In this document: positions 84-61,519 of the stretch, one piece after another
How the letters are laid out: each line of letters opens with the position of its first letter
Numbering within the stretch: position 1 is the stretch's first letter
Origin: Nemertoderma westbladi
Lineage: Eukaryota > Animalia > Xenacoelomorpha
Direction of reading: 5' to 3'
NCBI GenBank assembly: GCA_032718475.1
Contig: JAUCBJ010006790.1
Coordinates: 1-64,000 of the forward strand
Length of the DNA stretch: 64,000 nt
The notes under the pieces: generated by a model
Told to the model about the DNA's origin: nothing
What the model saw: only the letters and a program-made list of their open reading frames with translations
The model's database searches: none
Position numbers and translations under genes: made by a program

Positions 84-228
84 GACGGCCGGCCTTGCGG
101 AAGCGAGCGCGGGCCACGCGGCTTGGACCGCAGGCGGGCGCACCGGTCACGAGAATGGCGCGCGGGCTGCCGGCGGAGCGATTGGATGCCGTGCGTGCCC
201 GCGAAGGCAATACCGGGAAAGAGATGCG

Positions 229-750: not shown

Positions 751-1097
751 CGCGCCCGATCATCGCCACCCTCCGGCCCCCCGGCCGATCGTTCCCGCGA
801 ACAATCGCTAAAGATCAATTTATCGGAACGCGAGCTCACAACGAAAGACAACTCACGTAGGGCAGATAAAATTATTATTTTTGTTACACTTGACAAAGAT
901 ATTCACAATATTTTAATAAGTACGGGATAAGTAGTAGCTGATAATACGCAATAATCTTAATATGGATAACTTCTGCCATTAAAATATTATTGCCTTTATT
1001 ATTTTATTAGGGCGTTCTTATGCAAATTGATAAGAAAGCTGCTGAAGCTGCTGTTAAGTTGCTGAATTCTATAATTTGCATATATTACACATCGTCC

Positions 1098-24409: not shown

Positions 24410-25032
24410 TTTATCAAAATGTAATCTAAAGACGCGATTTTATTCTTTTTTCTAAGCTAAGATTCAAATTAACTCCCAATTTAATTTTATATTCATTATT
24501 AGCAGGGAATTTAATTTTATAATAATAATTATTAGCAGGGAATTTAATTTTATAGACCTTAGAGTTCTGTGAGATAAGACTTTATTTGTTTACGTCATTT
24601 ATTTGCACTACAGTACATAACTTGAGAATTTAAGTTAACAAATTTATATTTGATTTCGTTGCAAAGTGTACTCCTGATGTACTGGTGTAGGCCCCATAAT
24701 TTGTGCTATAAAAAAGTCAAATAAATTTGGGAATTGTATTTCATTAATGGGCTGCATTATTATTATGCAATTGATATATCTGATTTTTTTTCTTGAATTT
24801 GCGAATTGTTATTTCAGGCACCCCAAAGACTAATCCCAGAATACCTACAATGGTACAATCCCCAACATATCCTATTATCTGAGCCCGATTTTAGTCCTGG
24901 TGGTGTACAACTTTATTGCTATTTAACTATTTAACTGTCAACTTTATTTAACGCTATTTGGTGTTTTGACTAAAATACTTCGTAGAACACTACGAATCGA
25001 TAGATGCTTTGTTTATTTTGACTACGTACTAA

Positions 25033-25397
25033 CCCCCAAAATATCCATGCCCCATTTTAATACTTTACCCCCAAACAATGCCCTTTTAGAACACTATCAA
25101 TAGTTGTTTTGTTGTTTTGACTACTGTATTATCCCCCAAAATATCCATGCCCCATTTTAATACTTTACCCCCAAACAATGCCCTTTTAGAACACTATCAA
25201 TAGTTGTTTTGTTGTTTTGACTACTGTATTATCCCCCAAAATATCCATGCCCCATTTTAATACTTTACCCCCAAACAATGCCCTTTTAGAACACTATCAA
25301 TAGTTGTTTTGTTGTTTTGACTACTGTATTATCCCCCAAAATATCCATGCCCCATTTTAATACTTTACCCCCAAACAATGCCCTTTTAGAACACTAG
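25033..25397 (+). repeat. 100-bp tandem repeat, ~3.6 copies, inside the Crypton-like element
   Basis: ATATCCATGC recurs at 25041, 25141, 25241, 25341. Confidence 0.93.
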
Positions 25398-26121
25398 GGA
25401 ATCTCTGGTCAGAATGTATGTAACAACAAAATTATTACCCTGTCATTTTGTTATTTACCCGGTTAATTTGACCCTCAGAAATGTTATTTAACCCTTGGAA
25501 CAAGTTATAAACCCTCGGCTTCGCCTCGGGATTTATAACTCGTTCCTCGGGTTAAATAACATTTCTTCGGGCCGTAGTTGTTCTGTTGGCACCATTGTGT
25601 TTGTGGAAGCAGTAAAAAATTATCGGTTGTTTAACTGCGAAGCTGAACTCAATTTATTAGTTAGGATATTTAGGTTTAGCCGGCCATGGTTTTTTGAATC
25701 GCTCAAGTTAGAGAGAGAGTTAGAGAGAGTCGCAACCCGAAGATGTAGCCACGCGCTAGTGGATACATATAATATTTGAAATTAAAATTACGTTGATTAG
25801 AGCTATATATATAAAATTAGAAATATTCGGGCGGCAAGTATATTTTGAATATTTTGTATTAGATTCAAGGTTATTTTGTGCTATACCGGTATTTAATGCT
25901 ATATAGTAGCTATATAATAATATTTTTGTTTAAATATTGTGCTAGTATTTGCTATAACTATATACCCCGGGGCCATTAAATTCACAATATTGCATTGCGA
26001 ATTTATTTGACATTTGGACCAACTGATTATTTGACAAATAATTTGACCGTATTTCGGTTAAATTATATTTATATCTCGAACTTTGCGAGATTTTTGCCGG
26101 AAGGCAAACATTATTTAGACT

Positions 26122-32026: not shown

Positions 32027-33568
32027 AAAAGAACTGCGTGGTTAAGCCGATACGTTTCGTACCTTTGTTTAAAACATTCGAAACATTTGAGAGAACCATT
32101 GAGCACCAATAGTGAGCGAATTCGGAAATTGAAACAACCTCTGACAGAGGATGAGATTGATCAAGCGGAATTAAAGCATTTGAAACATTATCAAATGTGT
32201 GCCTTCCCGAAAGAATTCCATCTATTATCGGCTCATCGACCAGTTCTCTATAAACCCCTTAGAAAATGGAGTCCATTAATCCATAAGGATTTAATTTGTC
32301 ATAGATCGAGAATCCAGACTGTCGACATAAACTCACAGTTTCGGTTCCCAGTGATAATCCCTAGTCACCCAATAGAATTGCAAAGAGCGATTCTATGGGA
32401 TATACATAAGAGGTTGCATCACGCGGGAAAGTTACACTGTTTGTCGGCAGCGAGACAGCGATTCATTCTATTGCAGCCAAGCAGGGCAGTTGGCACTATG
32501 TACGACGCCTGTCTGGTTTGCAAGAGAGTGAACGCCAGAGTATTGGAACAGGAGATGGCTGAACTCCCGGAAGCGAGAGTGCAGGCATATGACCCACCCT
32601 TTACGAATACAGGGGTGGACTGTTTTGGTCCGATTGAAGCAAAGAGTGGACGGCTGACCCACAAGCGATGGGGTCTGCTACTGACATGTATGGCGAGTAG
32701 AGCCATACATATCGAGCGTGTGGCAGACATGTCGACCAAATCTCTGCTCCTGGCCTTAAAGAGATTTATGGCCAGGAGAGGACTAGTAAAGGCGTTCTAC
32801 TCTGACAAGGGTACAAACTTTGTCGGAGGGAATAGCGAGTTGAACGCGGCTCATAAAGCAGCACAGAATAAGGAAATTTCTGCAGCACTTTTGCCGCAAC
32901 GAGTAGAATGGAGATTCAATACTCCTGAAAGTCCTTGGAGAGGAGGAAGTTGGGAGCGTTTAGTTCGCTCTGTAAAACAGGCCATTGCCAAAACATTGCC
33001 TGTGAACAAACAACTTACCGACGACGAACTGGTCACAGCTTTCATTGAAATCGAGCATACCCTAAACTCGAGGCCGATAGCTATGTTGCCAGACGGTGTT
33101 GCATTAACGCCGAATCATTTGCTAATGCAGAGTCCAGCATTTCTTGTGCCGGCATCAGAACCCATTAGTGCCGACCTATATAGTCGTAAAAGCTGGAAAG
33201 TAACACAGTTTGTGGCGTACACATTCTGGGAATATTGGCGGGAATACTATCTTCCCACCATATCCACCAGAACAAAGTGGTACAAAACGGTTCGGAGTCT
33301 CCAAAAGGGAGATTACGTGTTGATAACCGAACCCATTGTCAAGAGAAAGTATTGGGAGACGGGAGTGATCTTGCACACACACCCAGACGTGCAAAACATA
33401 GTGCGCACAGTCACTGTGAAAATTAGATGCAAGTGTCCGCACCCAAAAAAGTGTAAAACTAATGGTTTACACACCTTGGACCGACCGGTCCAAGATATTG
33501 TGTTATTAGAGGAGACACGTATCGAGACGGGAGATTATAATTTGTCTCCTGCCTCAAAACAGAGTTAG
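32027..33568 (+). CDS. Element B integrase, in frame with pol after a single TGA
   Basis: HH..C..C zinc motif (HKRLHHAG..CLVC), GVDCFGP, SDKGTNF, GGSWERLV (DDE); C-terminal W..EYLP..R.KW. Confidence 0.9.
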   Translation, partial: KRTAWLSRYVSYLCLKHSKHLREPLSTNSERIRKLKQPLTEDEIDQAELKHLKHYQMCAFPKEFHLLSAHRPVLYKPLRKWSPLIHKDLICHRSRIQTVDINSQFRFPVIIPSHPIELQRAILWDIHKRLHHAGKLHCLSAARQRFILLQPSRAVGTMYDACLVCKRVNARVLEQEMAELPEARVQAYDPPFTNTGVDCFGPIEAKSGRLTHKRWGLLLTCMASRAIHIERVADMSTKSLLLALKRFMARRGLVKAFYSDKGTNFVGGNSELNAAHKAAQNKEISAALLPQRVEWRFNTPESPWRGGSWERLVRSVKQAIAKTLPVNKQLTDDELVTAFIEIEHTLNSRPIAMLPDGVALTPNHLLMQSPAFLVPASEPISADLYSRKSWKVTQFVAYTFWEYWREYYLPTISTRTKWYKTVRSLQKGDYVLITEPIVKRKYWETGVILHTHPDVQNIVRTVTVKIRCKCPHPKKCKTNGLHTLDRPVQDIVLLEETRIETGDYNLSPASKQS

Positions 33569-34338
33569 TGCTGGACGCAACTCACTTCGTATGCATTCCT
33601 CGTATGCAAATACAAGGAAATGCATAGGAGCGGGGTTGTGGTGATTTGCGTTGAGTTTTGTCTGGTGGGTATCAAAACAAAATTTTATTTTCAAAATTTT
33701 TGGAAAATTAGAAAATTTTAAAAAATTAAAAGTGAACCCAAGACAATTCCAGACGCTGTGTATAGACGCGTTTTAGAATTCGTCTATAGATAAACAGTAA
33801 TTTGAAAAGTCGTGAAGCCTGGAAAATAGCATTTAGAAACCATGGTGACGGCTATATTACGTAGGAGTGTAAATTGAGTCTAGCAACTTCCACAGATTGG
33901 TGCCAACAGTGCAACTAAGGTGCTAAAGGTTAGTAGCACCAGAGGCGTACATGGACCCCACTCAGTAGTTTGCAGGATGTGTGATGTTCGATTATCAAAC
34001 CTGTGGGTTTGGTATAGTCGAGTATTGTGGCTATAGTCCTTTCTAACTACTGTAGTTTAGTACGAGTAATGGGAGTAGTTTGGGCATCAAAAAGTGAGTT
34101 GGTCACGGCCAGTTTATCTCCAAAGTTTTTGCGCTATGCATGGGAATAGGTTAGAGGATAGTTAGTTAGGAAGAGACGGGATCTAGAGAGTCGAACCTGA
34201 ACTGCTGGAAGGCGGGGGGGGGGGGGGGGGGTTCGGGAGGTCTGTCCTTCGGCGACATCTAACTGATTTACCCACAGTGTAGTTGGTTACGTAACGGCAC
34301 TTATTGGGATATATATATATGTATATACGCGTAACATA

Positions 34339-37300
34339 ATGGAGAGGGATATTAGAGCGCAACCGCGCAGAGGATTTACTGCCAGAGAGGAGGCGGAGCT
34401 ACCATTCGCGCGACCAGGATGTAAAGACTCTAACGTTTACTACCATGGGCGGTCCGTGATGGAGCTGAACGGGAAGTACAAACCAAGTTATGATAAAGAA
34501 TTACGGAGAGAAAGAATGAGAGCGTTGGGGGACCGGATGGAAGTCTTGCGGAGAGAGTATCGCACGCGGTATCCCTACGACTTCGCTTTGGACGTGTGCG
34601 ACATTAGCGCAGATCCGGACGAGGAAATCGCACGACTATACCATATGAATATGTATTTACGACATGAGGAGCCTCTACCTGCAGTCCGAGACCAGTTCGA
34701 CGGAATGCATCTGTATCGGAGGACTCGAGGTGAGGATCAGGAGACGCTGAAAGTCTTCAGCGTGTACAAGCTCTTCTACAAGTGTGGTGAATGCATGAAT
34801 AAACAGGACGTGGCGATTCCCGACCGATTAGACGAGCAACATCCGGAACCGATATTAACGCGATGTCCAGCTCACCAATTCCTTAGATACAACGAGGGAG
34901 GTTACCCGATGAGCAACCCGATGATCAGTATCGACTTCAGCAGAAAGCGACCTCCGAGACTCATTACGCCGACCATTACGACATTAGATCCGTATACGGA
35001 GATTAAACCCTGTTCGACACCCAGTTTGATAGAGACGGCAGCAGCCATTTCGCTGTACCGAGCCTACAAGGATCTAGAGGCGCGGCGCGAAGCGGCGCGG
35101 GACTCGGGTACCAAACCCGCGGGTTTGGAGCTCTCGAGTCCCTGGACTACGTTTACTTCACCTCACCGAATGAGAAGCCTCACGCCTGAGCATCAGGACG
35201 ACATAGACGCGTTGCGGCAGGAGGAGCGAGCGGCGAAGGCGAAAGAGTTATTTGAGAACAGGATAGCGGAGTATAATAAGACCGCGGATAGACATCAAGA
35301 GGAGACGAGGAGAGTGACCGGATTTGTTCCACAGGTCGTATCTCAACCCGGACCGGTGTATTATTCCGACGGCACCGAACCTGCGATATTAGTAGATCAT
35401 CCGGAGTCGCGAGAAGCGATACGATTCTTGCCGATGGTAAGAATGGCGGACCATTGGAACGTTGACTGTCTACGGGAAGTTTTATGCGCGAAGTTCTTGC
35501 GTGATGTCCCAATGCAGATCACAGATTATGACACGTTGGATAAGATTGGAGCTCCGGGGAAGGAGAGTAAGCTATTCGGATGGTTGGATAAGTACATCAA
35601 GGTATGGGTCGCGGTGGCTACATTCCCAGACGACGAGGAGGTAGACCAGATGTGGCTGAGGAGGAAGGGTTCTTATACCCGATATGATGACCACAAGGCT
35701 ATCGAGCGCATGTGGACCCCATCAGACGAGATTCAGCGTCAGTGGAGGAAGACGGAGGAATCGCTGCAGGATTGGAGGGTGATGTTCTACGACAATGAAG
35801 GAGGGTCCCATCAGGAATGTTTGACCAGCAAGTGTATTCAAATTCGTGCGGCCGATGGTGTGACTCATGTGTTTATGCGTGTGAGGGCGGATCGAGAGAG
35901 ACCGGAGCCCATCATAACGACACAATATCGGAAAGGGAAGGATCCTAGGGAACAGATTTTGGAGGTATGCAGGCGAGGAGGTATGCACGGAGCGGAGCGT
36001 ATCGACGCCAGGATGTTACCAAAGAAAGTTAGAGAGGCTATTCTCAACCAAGATTACGTCAAGGTGGGATCGGGAGTCCAGAGCGATTTGGAGAGCGACT
36101 TCAACGCCATGACTGATCTGGAAGATAGATTGCCGAGACCGTTTGTCGACACCAAGCTATTGTTGCTATGGGCACAGGATATTGGAATTTATAGGGAGTA
36201 TCCCAACTCTGCCAAGACTGGTATGGGCTTTATAGCACACTTGTTGTATAATTGGGACTTTAAGTTAAAGACGCAAAAGAAGTATGAGGAGGCGTATGGC
36301 GAATACAACACTCCACCGGGAGCGGAGTTCAAATCCCACTTCAAGCGGCAAGCGTTAGTGTATTGGAACATTTGCGCGCCACCCCGTGCGTCGCTACAAT
36401 ATTATTTGGTGCTTGAGTCGAACACGGTGACTTGTTTATTAGCGGATATCGTTGCGCGAGTTTTGAAGTGTCATCCATTGGTATTTGGAGGAGATCAATA
36501 CGTTCGCTCGAAAGGGGGAATCCAATCCGACGTGATGAAGCGTTTCTTAACCCCGTTCTTCAACCAATCGTTAGAGAATACGTCGATGATTAGGAGAGGA
36601 TTAGCGATATTCGAAGGAGTATATCGACAGAACATCGGAGATTTGGGAGACCGACCGTCGATGGAATATCCGACGCCAGAAGCTTTGGAGAAGTGGTTCG
36701 GGAATCAAACCCGCGGGTTTGGTACTCCCTTCCACTCGGAGGCTGATAGACCTGTTAAGGAGGGCTGGCCGGAAACGTTAGTAGAGGTGTTCGGAGTAGA
36801 TCTTCCGGTGGAGAAGACATATCCGAAACGAACGCGGGAGGAAATATTGGAGATAGAGGACAAGGGCGAGGATGTTTACTTTGTTCCGGATCGACAACCG
36901 TTGACTGGAGAGGACGACATCGTATTAGACATTGGGAAGGAAGGAAGTGCGAAACCGATTGGAGACCTCATATACGAGAGGGCCTGGTTTCCACAAGCGC
37001 GTAGGTGCAAGTTGTGCGGCAGCACAAGGCACAATCTAAAGTCGTGCGACGCGGTAGTGGAGGCGGCACATAAAGTCTGTCGTTGGTGTAATGAGACCGA
37101 CCATTCGTTTCACACGTGCACCGTCTTCATTTCTCAATGTGGATATTGTGGGGTAAAGGGACATCGTAGCGCGAGATGTCAGCTGCGAGATGATTCCTTT
37201 CAAAACCATAGCGCTAACCTACTTCGTGAGATGTTAGACAAGTGGGAGAGTGTGGCGGATTACCATATTCAAGCGCAGATGCGTTGGTTACCATTTAAAG

Positions 37301-37779
37301 CGGGATATGGGTTTTGGGCGGTAGACCCATCGCATGTTGCGTACGAGCCATATCTACAATCGCTACCACAATATCAGGAGCTCATCCTAACTGCTCAAGA
37401 CCTTCCACAAAACACTGGAGTTATCGTAGTTCGAGAGTACTTCAGACAATTGAACATGGACAATAAGTACACATGGAACTTCGTTGCTATTTGCGATCGC
37501 ATCACGAAGGGTGTATTTACGGAGACTAGAAAAGTGGTACGCGCGCGAGGTGATTGGAGGATGGCGGCTATACAATACCGCAACGAATTCTTGTTGACTC
37601 ATGTGCCAGTGGGTTCATTGACCGCCGAGAGGATACAGGAACAAAGGATCGCAGCGACCACAGCGACGACCGCTGGAGCTCAAGGCTCGCGGAAAGAACC
37701 AGGAGGAGGGGTCCAAGACAAGCGTCAAGTCAAGGACGATCACTACCATTCGATACCTAAAGAGGTGAGGTCTCTATAG
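34339..37779 (+). CDS. Extra ORF of B (1146 aa): DnaQ/WRN-EXD-like 3'-5' exonuclease domain plus three CCHC zinc knuckles
   Basis: VMFYDNEGG (ExoI DxE), LPKKVREAILNQDYVKVGSGVQSD (ExoII), FVDTKLL, KTGMGFIA, LQYYLVLE (ExoIII-like); CKLCGSTRHNLKSC, CRWCNETDHSFHTC, CGYCGVKGHRSARC. Confidence 0.75.
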   Translation: MERDIRAQPRRGFTAREEAELPFARPGCKDSNVYYHGRSVMELNGKYKPSYDKELRRERMRALGDRMEVLRREYRTRYPYDFALDVCDISADPDEEIARLYHMNMYLRHEEPLPAVRDQFDGMHLYRRTRGEDQETLKVFSVYKLFYKCGECMNKQDVAIPDRLDEQHPEPILTRCPAHQFLRYNEGGYPMSNPMISIDFSRKRPPRLITPTITTLDPYTEIKPCSTPSLIETAAAISLYRAYKDLEARREAARDSGTKPAGLELSSPWTTFTSPHRMRSLTPEHQDDIDALRQEERAAKAKELFENRIAEYNKTADRHQEETRRVTGFVPQVVSQPGPVYYSDGTEPAILVDHPESREAIRFLPMVRMADHWNVDCLREVLCAKFLRDVPMQITDYDTLDKIGAPGKESKLFGWLDKYIKVWVAVATFPDDEEVDQMWLRRKGSYTRYDDHKAIERMWTPSDEIQRQWRKTEESLQDWRVMFYDNEGGSHQECLTSKCIQIRAADGVTHVFMRVRADRERPEPIITTQYRKGKDPREQILEVCRRGGMHGAERIDARMLPKKVREAILNQDYVKVGSGVQSDLESDFNAMTDLEDRLPRPFVDTKLLLLWAQDIGIYREYPNSAKTGMGFIAHLLYNWDFKLKTQKKYEEAYGEYNTPPGAEFKSHFKRQALVYWNICAPPRASLQYYLVLESNTVTCLLADIVARVLKCHPLVFGGDQYVRSKGGIQSDVMKRFLTPFFNQSLENTSMIRRGLAIFEGVYRQNIGDLGDRPSMEYPTPEALEKWFGNQTRGFGTPFHSEADRPVKEGWPETLVEVFGVDLPVEKTYPKRTREEILEIEDKGEDVYFVPDRQPLTGEDDIVLDIGKEGSAKPIGDLIYERAWFPQARRCKLCGSTRHNLKSCDAVVEAAHKVCRWCNETDHSFHTCTVFISQCGYCGVKGHRSARCQLRDDSFQNHSANLLREMLDKWESVADYHIQAQMRWLPFKAGYGFWAVDPSHVAYEPYLQSLPQYQELILTAQDLPQNTGVIVVREYFRQLNMDNKYTWNFVAICDRITKGVFTETRKVVRARGDWRMAAIQYRNEFLLTHVPVGSLTAERIQEQRIAATTATTAGAQGSRKEPGGGVQDKRQVKDDHYHSIPKEVRSL

Positions 37780-47265: not shown

Positions 47266-49104
47266 TGTTCGCGCTTTTAGACCTTTAGCAGTTTAACCTG
47301 CCAATTTTAGTTGTCTTTTTGTTTATAAATCGACTTTAGCCTATATCGATTATTTAATGTATTCTTGTATTCTTGTATATATATTTAGCGATTTAAAATT
47401 CACACGGTAGAACTCGTAGAGCACACCAAATTAAGTACATAAACCTAAAAACTGCAGTATATCAAATAATTAAGTACGGGCCTACAGTTGTAAAAATTAC
47501 GCAAATAAGGCACAAAATGCACATAACTAATAATGAGAAAAAAAAAAACATTATAGTAAAAATATACATTGTATACAAATTGTGCAAAAACTGGCTAATT
47601 CTTCTGTTTAAATGGACAATGCAATGAAAGAAATGTAGTCCATTTAATTTATTTTAATACTTGTACCTTAGTTAGGGAGTTTGACTGGATAGGTCTCGAG
47701 TCAGTGTATCCAGGCGAGCCTGGACAATCTGGGACGGTGTAAAGATATGCATCAAGATGCTTTTTAAAAGTCTCCAGTGCGCAGCCTGTCAAGTCTCTTA
47801 TATGTTTTGGGATGGTGTTAAATAATTTAGGTCCAATAACACAAAAACTGTTGTCTATAAGAGAGGAGACGCGACATGTAGCCTTACTTGCAAGGGACGG
47901 TATGGTACAAAGTCGACCTCTGCGGATGTTTTTTGTAGATTTAATTTTATAGGTTAGATCTGAAATATTTGGAACTCTATTTTCGATAATTTTCCATGTA
48001 TATATTATTATATACAATATATTAATGTAATGAAGTTACATCCACCGAAGCCAGTCTGTGCGCGACCATTCACGCACAGTTAAGGGAGACTGGATTCGGG
48101 TGCTTTGACGTTATTGCGTTGTAGACCTACTGTATTATTCGATTGATCGTTTACTATATAATCTCTGACAATATATTTACTTTTGGGGAAATATTAACAG
48201 TTCCTTTAGGACGTGGCACTTTAAGTATAAAAACAGAGTTAAGACTTATACTAATCACAACTAGATGGCTACTGAGTTTCGTAAAAAGCGCATTCTTTAG
48301 GAGATGCTTTATTAACCTTCACACTACTTCACACTACTTCACACTACTTCACACTGATCTGCCGACCATCACTGAATTTGATCATATATAAGGAGGATCG
48401 CAACTGACACATGTAGGGATTATGAAATAGCATTTAATTCACACATAAAACAACTATAATGTAAGTCGCAGTTGCTACCGGTAAACCTGTTCCTCTAACC
48501 TTCAGTAATCAAGAAGATTGTGGGGTTTTATGATTATTCATCGGTATTCTCCAAATATATCAGCAATATACATTAACATAACACCAATTAATAACAGAAG
48601 CAAATAATGGGGTGAACAGTCAGTATGTGTTACTTATGCAGAGTTCCATGAGCAGCAATGTTCAATATGTGATTCGCGTGATGCGTTAATAGTTTTACGT
48701 TCTTGTAATCAAAGCCATCAGATCTTTAGGCCAAAGTCTGAAACTTCCACAATCAGAAGTACAGAAGACTTCCAAGCAGTTCTCTCGCTCAGAAAGGTAA
48801 ACAAAGACCGTAATGCATTGCGCAGTTTTACATAGGCCCTTGTTCAACATAAAGTGAAAATCGCTCTGATTGGCTGAGTAGAACAAAGAGGTTCCACATT
48901 TACAGAAAATCAGCTGACAGATTTCGTCATCTGAGCTCCAGTCTTTTAGAGTATTAGGCGCATTGCGGCAAAAATGACTTGTTATGTCCGCTAAATCACC
49001 TACACGGTACATTGCGGAGAAAAATGACTTGTTATGTCCGCTAAAGTACCTACACGGTACATTGCGGAGAAAAATGACTTGTTATGTCCGCAAAAGCTTT
49101 TACA
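47266..49104 (-). repeat. A2 3' LTR interrupted by a LINE fragment; ~48-bp triple repeat in U3
   Basis: Matches 59324-60483 once 47362-48029 is removed. Confidence 0.88.
47362..48021 (-). mobile_element. 5'-truncated CR1-like LINE 3' end with (TACAAGAA) tail and 8-bp TSD
   Basis: YIIIYTWKIIE..VPN..RRGRLC..SF...GPKLFN.IPKHIR..FKKHLDAYLYTVPD.P; TTAATGTA at 47354-47361 and 48022-48029. Confidence 0.8.
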
Positions 49105-49182
49105 CCGCTCCCAGAAAATGGGATTTAATTCTATAAAATATAAAAAATCACAGTTTCTAAAATATAAAAATACTCTAAACAG

Positions 49183-50736
49183 TTAGTCCTTCTTACGTGA
49201 ACGGCATTTATGCAGTTTTTTGAGGCTAGCAAGAGTCCTTTTCTCTTTGGAGCGAGCCACTTTACTAGGAGGGCTATAACTCCTGGGTGAAGGGTGCAAT
49301 ACAATTGCATCAGAAGGTTTAGGGTTACGGTCGGTGTATCCGCTGGTCGAGCTACCCGGTTGATCGATATCAACCTCAGTGGAACGAGGTCGAACAACCT
49401 TCAGAGCGCGTTTCAAGACAGCAGCTCTTACTGGTCCCTGACGAGTCGTCTGCACGAGAGTGGTAGGTGGACCGTGAGTAGTGAGAAATTTCCTCGGTTT
49501 GATGGTTCTTTCCAACTCGCGTTCTCGGGCTCTATCGGAATCGATATGCTTCTCCTCGAACTGATTTTCCTCCGCTTGTCGTTGAAAGCATTCATCCAAA
49601 ACTCTTGCAGAGAGTAGGGTCGTCCAAGTTCGATATCTTCTTAGAGATTCTGGATTTCCCGATCGAACTGAGATAAAGCTAATTCGTTTACCGCTTGGAC
49701 TTGCTGCTGCAATTTACGTTTCTCTAAACAATCGTAAGTTCCTTTTCCGATCTTTTGTCGAATAGTGTCTAACGCGTTTCGTACAACTCTCTCCTCCACC
49801 TCGGTGACAGGTTGTATAGGATTAAACCGGGACGATTATACAGGTTGAACAGCGATATTAAATGTCTGCGTCCCAATCCGGCTAGGTAGGATGGGCGAAT
49901 ATCTAGGGAGCCCACAACCGGAGTGCCACCGACTAATTGTTCGGGTAACACTAGATCTTTGAACAATGAGTACAGTTCAGGAGGATCCGTCATACTATTA
50001 GGATCAAGAGTCTGAGGTCTCACCAGGGAATGAGGAGGTCTGACCGAGTATTCCGGAACTCGGATCATCGGTTTATTTAAGGATCGTTTGAGTCGAGCGA
50101 GCGCGGGTGATACGTCGAACAAGTTTCGCTCGAAACTCCCGTAAGTATAACGAGTAAAACTGTGTTTAACGCAACGTCTCCGCGGAGGTTTATGTCTTTC
50201 CATTTGTTGGTTGGGTCTAGGGCATTCGTCGCAATAATACCAAAGACGCACGTCTTGTAGGGGAAACGCGGGTGATCTTTCTCCAGTTTTACAATGTTTC
50301 TCTCAAGAATTCCAAATATACGTTGAAGTCACTGCGCTTATCTGGTTCTTCAACGTCTTCTCTTTCGAGTCGGTTTCGAATATAATTTTTCGTGTTCGAT
50401 TCTCAGTTTTTCGTTCCGACTCCGCTGGGTATGATATTTAAATAGGATCATTTCCCTTTCGGTGTCTACATCGTCCGTATCGTGTAAATCGACAGGATGA
50501 CCAGTAGTTAAGAAGTCCATATACGTACCATTACGATGCATATAGCGAGTGGTGAATTTTCTATAGTCCAATTCACGCGTGAGTTGTTCCTTTGACATTG
50601 GCGGTTCGATATAACGGCCATCATCCTCCGTAGTGGGTTGACTAGCGTCGCCGCGTATTAAACTATCAACAAACGCTTGCAATGGTAGGGTATATCGCTC
50701 CCTGATACCAAGATCATCTTCTATCAACTCAGTCAT
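49183..50736 (-). other. Three successive unassigned ORFs (128, 160, 138 aa) in the 3' accessory position of A2
   Basis: Same strand as gag, between the AT-rich spacer and the PPT; protein-like composition; one carries CDEC...C..H. Confidence 0.4.
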
Positions 50737-52373
50737 AGCTGCTATATGAGTTTATCGATATTATAATTAATAATAATTTAGGCTAGCGGTTGTCGCTGCC
50801 TCCCCCTCAATGCCCCCGGACAGCGCAAGCTCCTCAGCGCTGATGTACTGTCGCCGCTGTGTCTCTCGCCAACGTAGTAGCTACACAACACCAACAACAA
50901 CCAGCGCGAGTCACTCCACTGTCCGTCCCAAGGGCTTAGAATTACTTCAGGTTCTTGCTACAGAGGTAGGGCAACTTTCACAACTGCGACTCGCTACTGT
51001 AAACACACTTTAGTAGTAACATTCACCTATAAATGCACAAATTCCACACAACTGTCACAAATTGTACACATTCGGGCCATTTGTCCATTAGTCAAGTGCC
51101 TTCCAGAATGCCACGTTATTATTATGTATCCCTGGATACTAGCAGTGTGCTATTTATTTCGTATGCTATTCAGTGGGGCAAGCTTTCTGTTGTTCTTTTA
51201 ACTCGCTTCTAATTCTAGCGTGGTTGTTGCTATGGTGACGTTATGGAAAGCTAGCAGTAGAATTAGGGTAATTCTCATGCATACAGATCTGGGATGCTAT
51301 TTAATAGTAATTCTTTAATTGTCAATATTCCCCTTTATACATGATTTTATGAATTTTATCGGCTATTGACTATATATTGGAGATTCTCTCGCACTAATAT
51401 ATTTAATAGGGTGAATCTCCGCTCCCATGATCTATTAATTAATGGAATTTTGGGAATGTTATAAATTGTATAAAATGACAATTTATCAAATTCATGAGAG
51501 GATATGAATTTAAATTTATTCCCGTAAATTTTATTATTTAATATTAAAATAGACACAATTTTATTCCAGAGCATGTCTGGGAACTAGGATCCTTAATTCT
51601 AGGAAATTTGTCTTTTTAAGAGTATCGGTAAGTGCTACGATATCTTAATCGACCAGAATTTTAAAGGATCTGAATTTTAACAGATTTTGGATTTCTAGAT
51701 TTTCTTGGTTTACAAACTCCTTAGAGTTTATTTATATGCATTTACTCTATTATAACATTTGTTTTAATAGATTTTTATAAATATTAAATAATTAATATTT
51801 AAGATGGGCACCGAATTATTCCAGAACTTGTCTGGGGACGTTAACCACTGATTCTAGAATTTTGTCTTTCAAGTATATCGGTGGGTGCCGCAATATCTTA
51901 ATCGACTAGAATTACAGATGGTCAAAGGGTTTAACAGATTTATTTTGCGTTTTACGCTAATGTTAAAGGGACATCACACTACTATATGTATTATTTAATA
52001 TACGTTATGAGAGCAATATTGCAAGGAGCAATGTCAGTGAGAAGAGGCAAGTCGTTTCCAAGGTCTACCCAGAGCTTGGTTTAGCCGAGACACGAGGATC
52101 TGAACTTTGCATTCCTAATACTTATTATATATATACTTATTATACTAATAATTATTTCTCGCCATTGCACTAAATATATAATGTTAAGTAATTAAGTAAT
52201 AAACACGAATATATATATTGCACTAATCTACTAAATAATCGCTAAAATAATATTCTACTAAATAAAATTAAAGAAAACGATTATAATAAAATTACGTAAT
52301 AATACATACATAAATATAAAAATAATAAAAACAAATATAAAATAATATAGTCACACACCCACTCCAGGCGCTG

Positions 52374-53929
52374 TCACGTTGAGGAGTCCCTAGATGTTTG
52401 TTGGATTAAGGAGGTGGTCGTGGGAAGAGTATCTTGCCTTCCACAGTCTACGGACAGTTCTCGGTCTCTTTCCAGTAAACATAAACGACCAACTGGGCGA
52501 TTGAGTTGTTGTGTTTCGAATACAATTCCAGGTTTCTTCTTCGTCCTAGAATAGTGATGATGGAAACACCAAGTCCGGCTTTTGGTGAGGAGATCAATTG
52601 TATTTTCCTCATCGTATGGCTGGTTAATATCGTCGTTATCTGAGGAGTATGGTGTTCCCTCAGTTGTGGTCTCTCCCTCACTGATTTCTTCTTCCCATTC
52701 ACTCACCTGATGTACCTTTTCGTTAGGTAGTCTTTCCATGAGTGTTCTACGGGAAGGTCCAGCGAAGTACCAACCTACTCTCGTTCTTCCCGCATATGTT
52801 TGTAATGGTTGCGGTCGAGCAGGCCGTTTTTCTAATGTCTCTAGCGCCTCATGCGCATTTTGGCCGATCAATATCTGTACCCCTGGGTAGTCGGTGTTGA
52901 ATCTAGGGATATCATGCTGCTGGGTAAAATGGTCTTCATCCCAGTTGTAAGGTTCCACTTGGCTGGTAGCAAAGTTCTTTATCGCCACCATTTTTACTGA
53001 CCTTATACTATGTTCGCCTAGTTCATCCTGGGGAGTGGACAACGCGCCTACATAGTAGTCTGTAGCTACTGTGGATTTCCAAACCTGCATAATTCCTGAA
53101 AGGTTCAACTTAGTTCGGAACTTGGGTTGTCCAGCAAAGATGTCTTCGGCTAGTTCTTTGTCGATGAATGTACCTGTGCTGCCGGAGTCAAGGAGGGCGT
53201 TTACTATTAAACTTTTCCCTAGCCCGTGGACTCTCAGCTGCACTACAGGGAATTCCCGGAGTCCGACGTTGGAAGCCGGCGCTTTCCAAGATGGTTGCTG
53301 GTCCGGACTAGTCAGTTGTGCTTCCTTATCGGTATCAGTCTCATACGTAAGTGCTCGATACACTGCAGTGTTTATCATATGACAGGATTCGTTTTCGTCA
53401 GAGAATTCGTCCGTGTAGAATCCTTCCATCTCAGAGCTGTGGTCAGTGTCGTTCACATCACTGAATTGGACATGTAGTTCGGGCTCACTTACCTGACTCG
53501 TGCGGGTTCTTTCAAATTCTGTGTGCAGCAAGATATGATGTTTCGCGCCGCACTTAGCACACCTCGCACCTGAATAACAGGTCCGCCGTTGGTGTCCTTG
53601 TCTGAGACAATTATAACACAACCGCTTATCCCACATGACATTACGTCTATCCTTTAGGGATTTCTTCAAGAATTCATCACATCCACTTAAACGATGGGGC
53701 CCGTCGCACAATGCACATTTGGGTTTGATGTTACTTACTTTAACTTGTGTTGTGTTGTGCACCCTTGTTCTTTCTTTGGGCTTTCTTCCATGAATTCTCT
53801 TAGGAGACGTAGGAGGAGTTGTTACCTGTTCTCTCCTGTCACTGGTTATATATTCTATCTTCTGTTCTCTCCTGTCACTGGTTCGAGACTTAGATTTACT
53901 TACGTCTTTCCTCGGTTTATTGACATAAT
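52374..53929 (-). pseudogene. A2 gag C-terminus (3 Zn knuckles) and aspartic protease
   Basis: CALCDGPHRLSGC, CYNCLRQGHQRRTC, CAKCGAKHHILLH; ALLDSGS; ILIG; RTRVGW. Confidence 0.88.
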
Positions 53930-54179
53930 TAAATAAATTGGAGATCACCTTTAATTACAGTTGCAACAGCTCATCTCCAATTTATTTAATTAATATCACC
54001 TGGCAGCAATACTCGAGCTGAATATTTATTTATTTGTACTTCCCTCCTGTTTCACTCTAGCATACTTGAGGCCGTTAGGTCCACTGTTAGAGATAGAATA
54101 TATGCAACTTAAGACTGCCCGTTCAATAGAAGTGGATTAGGTGGGACTGTGAGTGTCAGGGGCTAGTGGCTGAGCTGGT

Positions 54180-54227
54180 TAGCGCTACTGATGAGGCCTG
54201 TTAGGCCGAAACGTACGTATAGCGCTG
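54180..54227 (+). ncRNA. Type I minimal hammerhead ribozyme, copy 1
   Basis: Stem I UAGCGCUA/UAGCGCUG, CUGAUGA, stem II GGCCU-GUU-AGGCC, GAAA, short palindromic stem III ACGUACGU; predicted cleavage after GUA at 54219. Confidence 0.92.
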
Positions 54228-54520
54228 GTTCAACCCCCGGTGACGCGCTCTCATTTTTTCCACTTCTGAACAAACCCATTATATTACACCTTTAATTACA
54301 GTTGCAACAGCTCATCTCCAATTTATTTAATTAATATCACCTGGCAGCAATACTCGAGCTGAATATTTATTTATTTGTACTTCCCTCCTGTTTCACTCTA
54401 GCATACTTGAGGCCGTTAGGTCCGCTGTTAGAGATAGAATATATGCAACTTAAGACAGCCCATTCAATAGAAGTGGATTAGGTGGGACTGTGAGTGTCAG
54501 GGGCTAGTGGCTGAGCTGGT

Positions 54521-54568
54521 TAGCGCTACTGATGAGGCCTGTTAGGCCGAAACGTACGTATAGCGCTG
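54521..54568 (+). ncRNA. Type I hammerhead ribozyme, copy 2
   Basis: Identical core to copy 1; predicted cleavage after 54560. Confidence 0.92.
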
Positions 54569-54860
54569 GTTCAACCCCGGTGACGCGCTCTCATTTTTTC
54601 CACTTCTGAACAAACCCATTATATTACACCTTTAATTACAGTTGCAACAGCTCATCTCCCATTTATTTAATTAATATCACCTGGCAGCAATACTCGAGCT
54701 GAATATTTATTTATTTGTACTTCCCTCCTGTTTCACTCTAGCATACTTGAGGCCGTTAGGTCCGCTGTTAGAGATAGAATATATGCAACTTAAGACTGCC
54801 CGTTCAATAGAAGTGGATTAGGTGGGACTGTGAGTGTCAGGGGCTAGTGGCTGAGCTGGT

Positions 54861-54908
54861 TTGCGCTACTGATGAGGCCTGTTAGGCCGAAACGTACGTA
54901 TAGCGCTG
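54861..54908 (+). ncRNA. Type I hammerhead ribozyme, copy 3
   Basis: Intact core; one stem I mismatch (TTGCGCTA); predicted cleavage after 54900. Confidence 0.88.
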
Positions 54909-55201
54909 GTTCAACCCCCGGTGACGCGCTCTCATTTTTTCCACTTCTGAACAAACCCATTATATTACACCTTTAATTACAGTTGCAACAGCTCATCTCC
55001 AATTTATTTAATTAATATCACCTGGCAGCAATACTCGAGCTGAATATTTATTTATTTGTACTTCCCTCCTGTTTCACTCTAGCATACTTGAGGCCGTTAG
55101 GTCCGCTGTTAGAGATAGAATATATGCAACTTAAGACTGCCTGTTCAATAGAAGTGGATTAGGTGGGACTGTGAGTGTCAGGGGCTAGTGGCTGAGCTGG
55201 T

Positions 55202-55249
55202 TAGCGCTACTGATGAGGCCTGTTAGGCCGTAACGTACGTATAGCGCTG
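55202..55249 (+). ncRNA. Hammerhead ribozyme, copy 4 (probably inactive)
   Basis: Core GAAA mutated to GTAA at 55230-55233. Confidence 0.75.
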
Positions 55250-55309
55250 GTTCAACCCCCGGTGACGCGCTCTCTACTATTCTTCTGAACAAACCCATTA
55301 TATTACACC

Positions 55310-57374
55310 TATTGACATAATAAGATCTTTCGGTGTCCTTACTGCTGTTTTCATCGTAGGACGTCGTCTGACTCCCACAATCCGTATAACACACTGGTGT
55401 TACCTCTCTCCTAGTAACGGGTTTTTCACTTACCTTACTTTCAGGAGTCTTCTCTCTAGACTGTTTTAGGAGTTGTAATCTTACCTCTCTGTTTAAGAAT
55501 GATAGAAGGTCCATCATGGTTGGATCTCTATGTTGTTGGTCCATCAAATAGAGAACCTTTTTGTCCCAGCGAGTACCTACTCCATCCTTTGGCAAAGTTG
55601 ATGCTAAGGCTCCTACAACCATAGAATTCTGGTATTCATGAGACTTACCCAACCAGTCTAACTGTCTACAGATCTCCTGAATCTCGTCGGAAAACTCTAT
55701 AATCCCGCTGCTAAGAAACTTTCGGGGCGCCATTAATTTCGCATATAAATACCTAGCTATGTTAGTCCTATTACCATACCTGATGTTTAGTGTATCCCAA
55801 ACTTGTCTTAATCCATCTGGATGTCCAATAAACTTTAACGCCATTAACTTGGGAGGTCCTTCCAAGCACTCGATGAGGAATCTAAGTTTCTCTCCGTTGG
55901 ATAGTACAGAGTTCTGTATGTTATCTTTGTAATATTCATTAAAAGGTAACCATTTCATCTCATCTCCATTGAACTTGACGATCTCTCCCACCTTTACCGC
56001 TTGACTGGCTTCAGTTCTAGCCATTTGACGCGTAAAACTTTCTTGGGCCATCGTATTATTTAATATCGAGTTATCAGTATATAAATTTCTCGGATTAGGA
56101 TCAGGTCTATATGGAATATCATTATCAACAGGTTTATAATTACCCTTAATAGGGTTCACTATAGGAGTTTCTACTTCACTAGCAGTATAGATGCGTGTAG
56201 GCTCCACACCTTGCGCATGAAATACTTCAGACCTAACAGGTTGACACATTGTTACAGGGGGTGGTGGTATACCCTTTTGTATATTTACCAATTTATCGCG
56301 TTCTAACGCGATACTCTGCTGCACTTCTTGCAACTCTAACCTACCCTCTCTTACTGTTCCCTTTAACTGCTGAACAGTCCCCTCCAACTCTCGGACCTGT
56401 TGGGAGGAATGTACATGATGTTCCCCATCTGCCCGAGCAGGAGATCCATCACCCGCCGTCGCTCATCCACCCACTCTACCGCCGAAGCGGGAGCCACCAA
56501 CATAGTAGCGGGTAGACGAGGGACGACGGGCGACAAATCGTTGATGTCTTGCTCGGCGTCCAGGACCGGTATTGATTCAGGGGCTGCTCTACTGGGCACA
56601 GGTAGTTTAGTACTGTGCAAAGGGAATTTAGAGTTAAGTTCTGGAAGTACAGGGGTCTCTATTTACAGAGGGGGTGACTTCGAAAACAGGCCTAATTATT
56701 TCAGGCTCATCTACTATAGTAGGGAGTCTGTCTACTCTAATAATTTGGTCTGTGGGTTCATGATTACCTAAGTCTACACTAGCCAGTTGCCTTCTCACCG
56801 CAGGAGGTAAATTAGGTAACTTCTGACGGTGTGGCGTTCTTCTACGTCCGCTTGAACGAGATTTATTACCTCTACCTTCGGGATCTGTTGTATCACCTTC
56901 ATCGGAGGAGGCAAATCCCTGTCTTCTGGGAGTAGATCGACTCAGTAACTGCATCTGAGTAGCTGTCCTTTGTTTCTTCAAATAATCTTGTTTCGCCTGA
57001 AGGTTTTCCAGCTCTTGTTGGGTAGTCGCTTCAGGCGCCTTCCGTTCTGCTTCAGCCACTGCCGCTTTCCTTTCAGCCTCTGCTGCTGCCGCTTTTCTAT
57101 CAGCCGCTGCCGCTTTCCTTTCAGATTCTGCCGCGGCCGCTGACCTTCGGTCTTCTATTTGCCGTTTCTTTAATTGTTCCTCTTGTTCCATTGCCATGAG
57201 GATGCCATGACGGTGCTGTACTAGCCTAGGGTCTGACACTACTACTGTAGGGATGACCTTTCTTACAGTAGGATGGGACTTGGACTTCGGTCTCAGATAT
57301 TCTATACTTCTATCTGATTCACAGACTGTTCTTTCTAGGAGACTATCTGACAGTGTTTGCTTTGTGTCAGCCAT
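55310..57374 (-). pseudogene. A2 gag N-terminus and core (DUF1759-like), frameshifted twice
   Basis: KFNGDEMKWLPFNEYYKDNIQNSVLSNGEKLRFLIECLEGPP..L..RYG; upstream coiled-coil ORF 57374-56634. Confidence 0.85.
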
Positions 57375-59323
57375 GATTTATTTTACAGTTGAATGCCTAC
57401 TACTATAACGACAGTTAAAGTAAGTCTAGTAATTCAGCATCAACTGCAAGCCTAGTGATTAATTACCGATACCGTTACTCAGTGTAACGCGATATATTAA
57501 TATATTAAATACCGGTATACTTATAGTATATATATAAGTATTATTACAGACTAGGATTAGTCACAGAATACCGGTATATAATTTCAGCATAAATTTATAT
57601 AAATATATATAATAAGCCTACCGTAAATACCGGTATACACCTATAGTATATATAAGTATTATTATAGACTAGGATTAGTTACAGAATCCCGGTATATAAT
57701 TTTAGCCTAAATTTATAGAAATAAATATAATAAGCCTATCGTAAATACCGGTAATGTCAATTATTGATGATAACTGAATTTCGGAATTTTAGGGTTACTT
57801 TCCTTTACTTTATTACTGTTATTAAGCAGTAGTCCAACTGATATTAAGACCTAATTGATGTATAACAGGCCTACTATTTTATAAATCGGTTTGAGTTGAT
57901 TTATAATATATTATGTACCCGTACAAGGGTTTCTGACAATATTTGAAATAAATGTTATTATTTCTGGGTAAGGGGGTCACTACACAGAAGCTGAACGCTC
58001 TCAGTGGAGTGCTACCTGTTAGACACTAAAACGAATAATTCTACTTTACTAAGTTACTTATCACTACAAATTACTTACAATTACAGTGTGAGATTACAAT
58101 CTCTAAATAAACACCAAAAGTTACACGTACAAATTTTAGGGTAATTTTACAAGAAATCTACAAACCAGTCTAACAAGGAGTTAGAATTTCTGGTTCTTAC
58201 AAACTGACAGGAATCTACGGTATTTGAAAACAATAAAGCAGTAGTAAGTAAATTGCGTTGTCCAGATAAGAAAATACCACCGTCTGACGACTTATAGTCT
58301 TAAACTATAAGTACTACATTATGTACCCGGAGTGTCCTTACCTAGAAGTTAATTACCGCAGCCAACCAGAGCTAACATGCCTATTATACAACACAAATAT
58401 ACTGCCTACACACTAATTAGGCCTACTTTCGGAAAGCACTGTACGCTAAACCCTAAATTAGGTACAAGTACTTATACAACAAATAACCAGCAGTTAAATA
58501 TACTTGTACAGGTAAAAGAACCACGGTATCTGCTGGAGTGACCAGAGCACAAAATCACCAGTCTTTACCTACGCCAAGCAGCCCTGATGTAGTACCGGGG
58601 TTAATTTAACTATAACGGTATGTATAACAAGCACAATTACTGTAGGAATAAACTTGGGGGTTATGTAGGTTGCGAATACTCGCATAGACTCTGAATAATA
58701 AATATTACGCTACCCGTGCAGACTATACAAACAAAATACAGACCAAATGCTGGGGGACTACTGTCAAGCCTAAATAAACTACAGTATATGCAGACTCCGA
58801 AATGGTTAGTTAGTAGGCGTTCTAACTGAGTAGTACGACTTATTCTTTCGGGGGGGATTTACCTTACAACACTGGATGCCCCCACCTTCCTAACTAGTAC
58901 TTTATCGGACATACACTCTACACACACTGCAATCGCTTCAGACTTAACAACAGTCAGACAACAATCCAGCCTACAAATTATTTGTACAATTTGAGCGGGC
59001 TTACACGCCTTCTGCTCAATATTACACTTACAGATAAATAAAACTGACAGAAATAAATAAGCTCCAAAAGAAATAAGGGGTGTACAGTCCCTACTCTCTT
59101 AAACAGCCTACCAATATACAATATCACAATCGAACTAATACTGGCACCTATAAGTACTGGTTCGGGTGGTTGGGCAGTTAGGCCTACAGGTTACCGTCCG
59201 ACCGGTACATTCGAATTTATTGCCTACGTGCAATCAAGAAACAAAAATATATTATTGTTCTTACCAGAATAATAGACAAAATATTTATTGCCTACTGTGC
59301 AATCAAGAATTTAAAACTATTAA

Positions 59324-60483
59324 TGTTCGCGCTTTTAGACCTTTAGCAGTTTAACCTGCCAATTTTAGTTGTCTTTTTGTTTATAAATCGACTTTAGCCT
59401 ATATCGATTATTTAATGTACTGAAGTTACATCCGCCGAAGCCAGTCTGTGCGCGACCATTCACCCACAGTTAAGGGAGACTGGATTCGGATGCTTTGATA
59501 GTGATTGCGGTGTAGACCTACTGTATTATTCGATTGATCGTTAATATATAATCTCTGACAATATATTTACTTTTGGGGAAATATTAACAGTTCCTTTAGG
59601 ACGTGGCACTTTAAGTATAAAAACAGAGTTATGACTTATACTAATCACAACTAGATGGCTACTGAGTTTCGTAAAAAGCGCATTCTTTAGGAGATGCTTT
59701 ATTAACCTTCACACTACTTCACACTACTTCACACTGATCTGCCGACCGTCACTGAATTTGATCATATATAAGGAGGATCGCAACTGACACATGTAGGGAT
59801 TATGAAATAGCATTTAATTCACACATAAAACAACTATAATGTAAGTCGCAGTTGCTACCGGTAAACCTGTTCCTCTAACCTTCAGTAATCAAGAAGATTG
59901 GGGGGTTTTATGATTATTCATCGGTATTCTCCTAATATATCAGCAATATACATTAACATAACACCAATTAATAACAGAAGCAAATAATGCGGTGAATAGT
60001 CAGTATGTGTTACTTATGCAGTGTTCCATGAGCAGCAATGTTCAATATATGATTCGCGTGATGTGTTAATAGTTTTACGTTCTTGTAATCAAAGCCATCA
60101 GATCTTTAGGCCAAAGTCTGAAACTTCCACAATCAGAAGTACAGAAGACTTCCAAGCAGTTCTCTCGCTCAGAAAGGTAAACAAAGACCGTAATGCATTG
60201 CGCGGTTTTACATAGGCCCTTGTTCAACATAAAGTGAAAATCGCTCTGATTGGCTGAGCAGAACAAAGAGGTTCCACGTTTACAGAAAATCAGCTGACAG
60301 ATTTCGTCATCTGAGCTCCAGTCTTTTAGAGTATTAGGCGCATTGCGGCAAAAATGACTTGTTATGTCCGCTAAATCGCCTACAAGGTACATTGCGGAGA
60401 AAAATGACTTGTTATGTCGCTAAAGTACCTACACGGTACATTGCGGAGAAAAATGACTTGTTATGTCCGCAAAAGCTTTTACA
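59324..60483 (-). repeat. A2 5' LTR (1160 bp)
   Basis: On the minus strand reads TGTAAAAGCTTTT...AAAAGCGCGAACA; related to but diverged from the A1 LTR. Confidence 0.9.
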
Positions 60484-60919: not shown

Positions 60920-61080
60920 TGATTCAATTGTGGCTGTTTATTTTCTGATAATTGCTGTAAATTATTATAACCTAGGCGGTCTGGTTTAAATAACGGTTAC
61001 AGCTTACAAACCTATGGTATTATATGGACGTGCTGTCCTGTGTGCTCTACAGACACCCTGTACAGAGTATGTGTAGCATT

Positions 61081-61112
<32 letters not shown>

Positions 61113-61320
61113 TGTGAGGAGATTCAATTGCGGCTGTTATTTTCTGATAATCGCTGTAAATTATTATAACCTAGGCTTTAACTGGTTTAAATAACGGCTA
61201 TAGCTTACAAACCTATGGTATAATATATTGAAGTGGTGTCCTGTGTGCTCTGCAGACATCCTACAGAGCATATGGAGCATTACACACACAGAGAGCAGAG
61301 AGAGAGAGAGAGAGAGTGAG
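60920..61320. repeat. ~200-bp tandem duplication ending in (CA)n(GA)n microsatellites
   Basis: GATTCAATTG(T/C)GGCTGTT at ~60921 and ~61121. Confidence 0.7.
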
Positions 61321-61519
61321 GGCTGCTTGATTGACACACGGCTCAGTGGGAATCTAGACTTTGAAGTGCAGCGCCTTTGGTAGAACTCAATGGCAGGATT
61401 TATAAGCCTGGTACATTTCAATATTTGATCAAATATTGATCAAAGGAATGCTTTTTGAGAGCGGGACTGTAATTACTGAATTAGGTAACTATGACAGAAA
61501 AATTACTGCACGAATTAGA

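What the first reader, a model, noticed from the sequence alone, without database searches (positions are those of the whole stretch)
53918..55321. Recent hammerhead retrozyme-like array predicted to release ~341-nt (circular) RNAs
Seen: four near-identical non-coding units, each with a type I hammerhead whose tiny stem III is the palindrome ACGUACGU, plus extended stem I pairing, a 12-bp TSD and a short inverted 5' segment. Established: metazoan non-LTR retrozymes and Penelope pLTRs carry such minimal hammerheads, which cleave as dimers, and retrozymes yield circRNA. Inference: cleavage at 54219, 54560 and 54900 gives 341- and 340-nt monomers, and the array arose by rolling reverse transcription of a circle by a Penelope-like RT. 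Copy 4 has a dead core.
Basis: partly seen in the sequence, partly recalled or inferred. Interest (0 to 1): 0.8.

Follow-up and report, generated by a model that had tools for sequence, protein, structure and literature searches.

The report
Retrozyme with hammerhead inside tRNA promoter
This is one young insertion of an abundant, non-coding 341-base animal repeat, likely pasted in by a Penelope-type jumping gene, and its predicted self-cutting RNA motif sits between the two halves of a tRNA-type promoter motif, so cutting would split the element's own likely promoter.

Summary
Four 338-341-bp units each carry a type I hammerhead. They sit between a 12-bp target duplication, with a 16-bp inverted arm, inside a Bel/Pao gag-like gene. 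Contigs of other host-element copies lack the insertion, and the unit is an abundant family. It is a metazoan non-LTR retrozyme. The two ends, 38-43 nt apart in the unit, and the symmetric AT-rich target fit Penelope-type copying. This scan has reported such arrays often on other DNA (257 notes match the words).

The 'extended stem I' is a Pol III A box paired with a B box. The hammerhead lies between them, where a tRNA's anticodon arm would be, and a T6 run follows (box pair in 2 of 30,000 shuffles). The predicted main RNA is therefore about 100 nt; 341-nt circles need read-through. Cleavage would split the promoter, so only uncut or re-ligated RNA could found an active copy.

No RNA, cleavage or autonomous partner is shown. 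Schistosome Sm-alpha is described as a promoter followed by a hammerhead; I could not read the original paper. Verdict: new variant of a known kind.

The parts
53918..53929 (.). Left target-site duplication (11-12 bp)
   Evidence: Only two copies in the window; 21 contigs of X1 and 10 of X3 leave the window here and continue with the right flank (table 7)
53930..53945 (-). Inverted short arm, unit positions 28-43; the 4 last TSD bases also match the unit (positions 44-47)
53946..54286 (+). Unit 1 (341 bp)
54287..54626 (+). Unit 2 (340 bp)
54627..54967 (+). Unit 3 (341 bp), stem I change at 54862
54968..55309 (+). Unit 4 (338 bp) plus 4 bp of a fifth; core change at 55231; T6 run replaced at about 55272-55281
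55310..55321 (.). Right target-site duplication
54160..54178 (+). tRNA-like 5' part with Pol III A box at 54167-54178 (also 54508, 54848, 55189)
54181..54226 (+). Type I hammerhead, predicted cut after 54219 (also 54522-54567, 54862-54907, 55203-55248)
54227..54237 (+). Pol III B box and T-arm remnant (also 54568, 54908, 55249); the only four B boxes in the window
54254..54259 (+). T6 run, predicted Pol III terminator (also 54594-54599, 54935-54940; absent in copy 4)
53826..53883 (.). 22-bp duplication around a 14-bp spacer, 13 bp of which are the reverse complement of unit positions 146-158
   Evidence: (table 5)
52377..56462 (-). Interrupted gag-like coding region of the host Bel/Pao element (DUF1759 on the right side, weak aspartyl protease match on the left)
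48009..60483 (-). Host element, bounded by a likely LTR pair (48009-49104 and 59400-60483; 25 substitutions in 1083 aligned bases)

Best explanation
This is one young insertion of an abundant non-coding repeat family whose unit holds a type I hammerhead between a Pol III A box and B box, likely a non-autonomous passenger copied into the genome by a Penelope-type reverse transcriptase-endonuclease. Shown: array, TSD, empty sites, abundance, motifs and their order. Inferred: (1) Pol III starts near 54150-54160 and mostly stops at T6, giving an RNA of about 100 nt (p about 0.6); unit-length RNA needs read-through of one T6 or Pol II read-through. (2) The hammerheads cut as dimers through the ACGUACGU palindrome (p about 0.75), and monomers are ligated to circles as in other retrozymes (p about 0.5). 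(3) The Penelope enzyme nicks both strands of the AT-rich target and starts cDNA at two internal sites, unit positions 4-5 and 43-47. One cDNA ran four units, the other 16-20 nt (p about 0.8 for Penelope-type insertion). (4) The four units came from one template, most likely a circle (0.45; uncut multimer 0.35; local amplification 0.2). Because the cut falls between the boxes, only uncut or re-ligated RNA would restore the order A box, ribozyme, B box.
For: Insertion: TSD unique in the window; empty-site contigs, 21 in X1 and 10 in X3. Family: 3104, 1490, 7 and 110 contigs laid in X1, X3, X4 and X5 on unit plus flank, with head-to-tail joints in 3 of 4 runs. Penelope anatomy: an adjacent inverted 5' copy and a 30-40-bp tail are typical (Craig et al.). 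The anole PLE nicks and extends both strands at ATT and starts at two internal sites (PMC11167929). Here the ends map 38-43 nt apart and both lie away from the hammerhead cut. The target has 5-bp inverted arms (53917-53921, 55319-55323); such arms occur at 1 of 2667 positions of the host coding region. One template: no variant is shared by a subset of copies, and all four read T at unit position 335 where 95%, 98% and 76% of depth in X1, X3 and X5 reads A. Promoter: strict A+B pair in 2 of 30,000 unit shuffles and 0 of 30,000 local shuffles. The cassette halves match 369 phage tRNAs in register; 0 of 200 shuffles scored as well on a sample of 60. ARAGORN at 85% threshold of 4 copies against 29 of 1000 shuffles. 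The one frequent A-box variant keeps the purine.
Against: No autonomous Penelope partner could be sought: no genome is held, and none of 160 window ORFs scanned has a GIY-YIG match. The circular monomer folds no better than shuffles (z 0.02 and 0.57). The dimer's energy gain is ordinary (34 of 100 shuffles as good). Stem III pairs at only 0.02 in the monomer. The Rfam score is below gathering. Default ARAGORN finds no tRNA, and the acceptor strands no longer pair in tRNA register. Conservation of the boxes is not significant: 1 of 34 listed variant rows against about 2 expected. Five G>A rows break predicted pairs of the outer rod, and one breaks stem II (partners not phased). T6 in each unit argues against Pol III multimers. 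In Xenopus only 1 of 9 retrozyme dimers cleaved in vitro, and in the anole PLE cleavage was not needed for insertion. The two start points rest on one locus.
Confidence: 0.68

Rival explanations
1. The unit is the pseudo-LTR of an autonomous Penelope-like element, and this locus is a 5'-truncated tandem of it. It is not an independent retrozyme family.
For: Inverted 5' piece, large TSD and internal start sites are PLE traits; Xenopus retrozymes are sister to pLTRs.
Against: Four complete head-to-tail units with no ORF sequence between them. Head-to-tail joints in 3 of 4 runs. A canonical, not minimal, hammerhead. No listed loose end shows a common ORF-like neighbour, but only part of those tables is shown (578 and 393 rows hidden).
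Confidence: 0.14
2. A Pol III SINE-like element of the Sm-alpha kind that makes only short linear RNAs. One or two units were inserted and later amplified in place; circles play no part.
For: A/B boxes and T6. The long arm begins and ends at the same CACCT 5-mer, an integer number of units. No circle-like fold advantage. Three listed contigs match only the cassette, about 54152-54249, with unlike flanks (table 8).
Against: Star-like copies with no nested shared variants. No poly(A) or simple-repeat tail. Ends lie at neither the predicted start site nor the terminator. The inverted arm is primed at the TSD end.
Confidence: 0.13
3. The box-like motifs are relics or by-products of stem I pairing, and the element is an ordinary promoter-less retrozyme read through by Pol II.
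For: A and B boxes pair with each other in the predicted fold; no cloverleaf at default threshold; retrozymes are said to lack promoters (PMC7761336).
Against: Shuffle tests, in-register match to real tRNA halves, and a T6 run 17 nt after the B box. tRNA origin looks real even if the promoter is dead.
Confidence: 0.2

Closest known systems
Metazoan non-LTR retrozymes (Cervera and de la Pena 2020, PMC7229834, parts 2-4 of 6 read; Li, Clavereau and Pollet 2026, bioRxiv 10.64898/2026.07.22.740005, parts 1-3 of 5 read)
   Same: Tandem non-coding units of 150-450 bp, GC below 50% (44%), canonical type I hammerhead with a 2-bp helix III and palindromic loop, TSD longer than 4 bp, few units per array, abundant family.
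   Different: Carries Pol III A and B boxes and T6; the 2020 main text names no internal promoter and a review says retrozymes seem to have none. The circle is not unusually stable. RNA not shown.
Schistosoma Sm-alpha / Sj-alpha SINE-like hammerhead repeats (passages of PMC6765202 and PMC2770079; the original papers were not read)
   Same: tRNA-derived Pol III promoter and type I hammerhead in one tandem unit.
   Different: There the review describes a promoter followed by the hammerhead, and copies are still called as tRNA-Gln genes. Here the hammerhead lies between the boxes, the anticodon arm is gone, and T6 follows. The order in Sm-alpha is taken from the review only.
Penelope-like elements (Poseidon of anole, PMC11167929, parts 1-2 of 4; Craig et al. 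2021, passages; PMC4209133, parts 1-2 of 4)
   Same: Inverted 5' piece next to a tandem, two internal start points 30-40 nt apart, nicks at ATT/AAT on both strands, hammerhead upstream of the start points.
   Different: No ORF; canonical rather than minimal hammerhead; tRNA-derived cassette.

Membership tests
Metazoan non-LTR retrozyme | Tandem units of about 150-450 bp, each with a type I hammerhead, at least two consecutive complete motifs | tested here: met
   copies 1-2 intact, copy 3 weakened, copy 4 core-changed
Metazoan non-LTR retrozyme | No protein coding, no LTR/PBS/PPT layout, GC below 50% | tested here: met
   Longest stop-free stretch 48 aa, GC 0.44; PBS and PPT were not searched for separately
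Metazoan non-LTR retrozyme | TSD longer than 4 bp; dispersed multicopy family | tested here: met
   (contig counts, not copy numbers)
Metazoan non-LTR retrozyme | Highly self-paired circular RNA fold | tested here: inconclusive
   58% paired, z about 0 for the circle; the rod around the hammerhead has z -3.0; no known retrozyme was folded as a control
Metazoan non-LTR retrozyme | Self-cleavage and linear or circular monomer RNA in vivo | not testable with these tools
   needs bench work or raw RNA reads
Penelope-like element (autonomous) | ORF with telomerase-like RT and GIY-YIG endonuclease | tested here: not met
   none inside the TSDs; no GIY-YIG match among 160 window ORFs; rest of genome not held
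Penelope-like element (autonomous) | Minimal hammerhead (no helix III, long helix II, extra base before 10.1) | tested here: not met
   sequence against the definition
Penelope-type insertion footprint | Tandem with adjacent inverted 5' piece, two start points 30-40 nt apart, AT-rich nicks | tested here: met
   at this one locus only
tRNA-derived SINE / Sm-alpha type | Internal A and B boxes at tRNA-like spacing | tested here: met
   48 nt between boxes; fits the TRGCY..YGG and GGTTC motifs given in PMC10886601
tRNA-derived SINE / Sm-alpha type | Promoter wholly upstream of the hammerhead, tRNA head still recognisable as a tRNA gene | tested here: not met
   hammerhead lies between the boxes; default ARAGORN finds none
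tRNA-derived SINE / Sm-alpha type | Transcription by Pol III | not testable with these tools
   motifs only

The most novel reading that the evidence does not exclude
The hammerhead has taken the place of the anticodon arm of a tRNA-derived Pol III gene, possibly growing out of its anticodon loop. The element is a self-transcribing retrozyme whose ribozyme cuts its own promoter in two: only re-ligated circles or uncut RNA can found active copies, while tRNA-sized terminated RNAs pair and cut each other.
Probability: 0.3. Interest if true: 0.75.

Novelty: new variant of a known kind. Interest (0 to 1): 0.5.

Why it matters
Who transcribes animal retrozymes, and whether circles or uncut RNA are the copying template, are open points in the papers read. 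A unit with its promoter wrapped around the cut site makes both testable in one construct: box mutants, terminator mutants and core mutants predict different RNAs and different insertion products. A tRNA origin of the cassette would also give a concrete route by which a hammerhead can arise in a SINE-like head. Without that feature the locus is an ordinary retrozyme.

Tried and rejected
No whole genome is held, so copy number, end clustering and the autonomous partner stay open. No RNA holder was listed. X4 (RNA only by guess) has one 371-nt contig that closes on itself over the unit, but it also covers the flanking element and a tandem array gives the same contig, so it is not used as evidence of a circle. 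Family-specific metagenome scan: 0 hits. Loose pattern: 0 in viral contigs and 40 in metagenomes, of which 1 passed a strict stem filter and none shared more than 31 bp with the unit. Phage similarity search: one chance-level hit. The type III Rfam hits (E 0.6) were set aside for the better type I fit, and the miRNA hits there come from the inverted arm. Host lineage is unresolved: the atlas gave no answer five times, one protein had no relative at 1e-30, and another had relatives at 31-42% identity whose named rows are fish, crustacean, cnidarian, echinoderm, hemichordate and insect, so 'animal' only. tRNA isotype is unresolved: Phe ranks first with the loop and second without it, the Phe set was selected by my own pattern, and the panel is viral, not animal. 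Dimer energy is no evidence. CpG decay is a weak dating aid: 3 of 7 private substitutions are at CpG, but window CpG o/e is 0.93. Ferbeyre 1998 is not held; the supplement of PMC7229834 was unreadable and may show unit structures that bear on novelty. No paper with a hammerhead between A and B boxes appeared in the listings of searches; most listed papers were seen as listing only.
Full report
Observation. TRF finds four units of period 341 at 53946-55310. Each has a type I hammerhead: stem I of 7 bp, CUGAUGA, stem II of 5 bp, GAAA, and a 2-bp stem III inside the palindrome ACGUACGU. A simple descriptor hits copies 1-3 and is expected 0.005 times per 64 kb. Rfam's type I model matches end to end at E 7.8e-4, below its gathering score. 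Copy 4 has GTAA for GAAA, a private change; that this kills cleavage is recalled knowledge, not tested. Copy 3 has a weakened stem I. By the definitions in PMC4209133 the motif is canonical, not minimal.

It is an insertion. The 12-mer TATTGACATAAT occurs only at the two ends. The flanks are a Bel/Pao gag-like region (DUF1759). In public contigs of the same coded organism, 21 contigs of X1 and 10 of X3 pass from the left duplication straight into the right flank. The unit is an abundant, varied family: 3104 and 1490 contigs were laid on unit plus flank in X1 and X3, with head-to-tail joints in 3 of 4 runs. These counts are not copy numbers. The copies differ by 1.0-1.3% pairwise and the host's likely LTRs by 2.3%, so the array is roughly half the age of its host element; this is a rough figure.

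One template. Every difference among the four copies is private to one copy. All four share a base at unit position 335 that is rare in the family. That fits one copying event or a quick local amplification, not stepwise growth.

Penelope-type footprint. The long arm ends at unit position 4-5, 72 nt past the predicted cut. The inverted arm starts at position 43-47, with four bases shared with the end of the TSD. Neither end is at the cut site. The anole Poseidon protein nicks and extends both strands at ATT and starts at two internal sites that bound a 30-40-nt tail; it does not need hammerhead cleavage in vitro (PMC11167929). An adjacent inverted 5' copy is typical of Penelope-like elements. 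The target here is symmetric, with 5-bp inverted arms; such arms occur at 1 of 2667 background positions. Unit positions 6-81 show no listed variant (4 rows hidden), as a binding region might. Earlier notes of this scan describe two fixed start points in other families; I tested this at one locus only. The long arm also begins at the same CACCT at which it ends. A rolling enzyme would do that by chance about 3% of the time (my estimate), so a stop at the start site, a deletion between the two CACCT words of the unit (positions 1 and 52), an uncut multimer or local amplification must be considered.

What was missed. A motif scan found an A box at unit positions 222-233, a B box at 282-292 and T6 at 309-314 (the consensus patterns are recalled, and agree with the motifs in PMC10886601). 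The strict pair appears in 2 of 30,000 unit shuffles and 0 of 30,000 local shuffles; in the window it occurs only in the four units. Against 369 distinct tRNAs from 122 viral loci, the 5' part aligns from tRNA position 1 through the D loop and the 3' part to the T arm; 0 of 200 shuffles scored as well on a sample of 60. ARAGORN calls nothing at default, 1 of 4 copies at 90% (shuffles 3 of 1000) and 4 of 4 at 85% (29 of 1000). Three listed contigs match only this cassette, with unlike flanks (table 8; most pieces are hidden). The isotype is unresolved. In the panel only Phe loops fit CUGANGA (102 of 106 Phe, selected by my pattern; 0 of the 262 others with a named isotype), and the box lies 3-4 nt closer to the D loop than an anticodon loop would. 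An origin from the loop is therefore a hypothesis.

Results against. The circle folds no better than shuffles, though the rod around the hammerhead does (z -3.0). The two-molecule minimum-energy fold contains the 8-bp shared helix III, but its energy gain is ordinary. Box conservation in the family is not significant (1 of 34 rows against about 2 expected). Six listed variants break predicted pairs. Most Xenopus dimers did not cleave in vitro. No partner element could be sought beyond the window.

Mechanism. Most likely Pol III makes a short RNA of about 100 nt from each cassette, and occasional read-through gives multimers. Dimeric hammerheads would cut these to 341-nt monomers, which a tRNA ligase would close, as shown in vitro for axolotl and mussel units. 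A Penelope enzyme would then copy the RNA from two internal sites into a doubly nicked AT-rich target. A cut monomer has the boxes in the order B then A, so only uncut or ligated RNA would give a working promoter. All these steps are inferred.

Comparison and novelty. The locus meets the tested sequence criteria of non-LTR retrozymes, and this scan holds 257 notes with the same words. A review says retrozymes seem to lack promoters. The nested order did not appear in six paper searches or in two look-ups of earlier notes. But the original Sm-alpha papers and the 2020 supplement could not be read. Papers seen: PMC7229834 parts 2-4 of 6 and passages; the 2026 preprint parts 1-3 of 5; PMC4209133 and PMC11167929 parts 1-2 of 4; passages of Craig 2021, PMC2770079, PMC6765202, PMC7761336, PMC10886601, PMC2220036 and PMC8782182; the rest as search listings. 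Verdict: new variant of a known kind, interest 0.5.

Noticed in passing
window 53826-53883: A 22-bp duplication encloses 14 bp, 13 of which are the exact reverse complement of unit positions 146-158 (2 of 20,000 unit shuffles; any 13-mer shared with the flanks in 6 of 3000). Contigs in all four runs skip this stretch. Likely a repair-type templated insertion or an aborted second priming 35 bp from the main site; it is also in frame within a repetitive part of the host gene, so a host repeat variant is not excluded.
   Followed up: partly
window 55272-55281: Copy 4 has a private replacement of the T6 run about 30-38 nt from the 3' end of the insertion; its source is unexplained.
   Followed up: partly
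window 1-850: A 65% GC stretch with an intact bacterial-looking GNAT acetyltransferase ORF abuts AT-rich animal DNA: contamination, a chimeric join or a transferred gene.
   Followed up: no
window 19456-41875: Two 2240-bp direct repeats (99.9%) enclose a tyrosine-recombinase ORF (DUF3504 plus integrase, 22970-24409; no relative at 1e-30), a second Bel/Pao gag-pol region (26119-33568; relatives at 31-42% identity) and a 1170-aa ORF without Pfam match (34267-37779). All are nested in another repeat pair.
   Followed up: partly
window 54192 (table 5): Two different opposite-strand joints in family contigs both end at the hammerhead core (54192); possibly further inverted insertions.
   Followed up: no
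L028 2588-2618: An unrelated AT-rich metagenome contig holds a type I hammerhead-like motif with a similar palindromic stem III and paired stems I and II, near other tandem repeats.
   Followed up: no
window 12483-13710, 24996-25396, 60921-61321: Other tandem repeats (455, 100 and 201 bp units) without a CTGATGA core.
   Followed up: no
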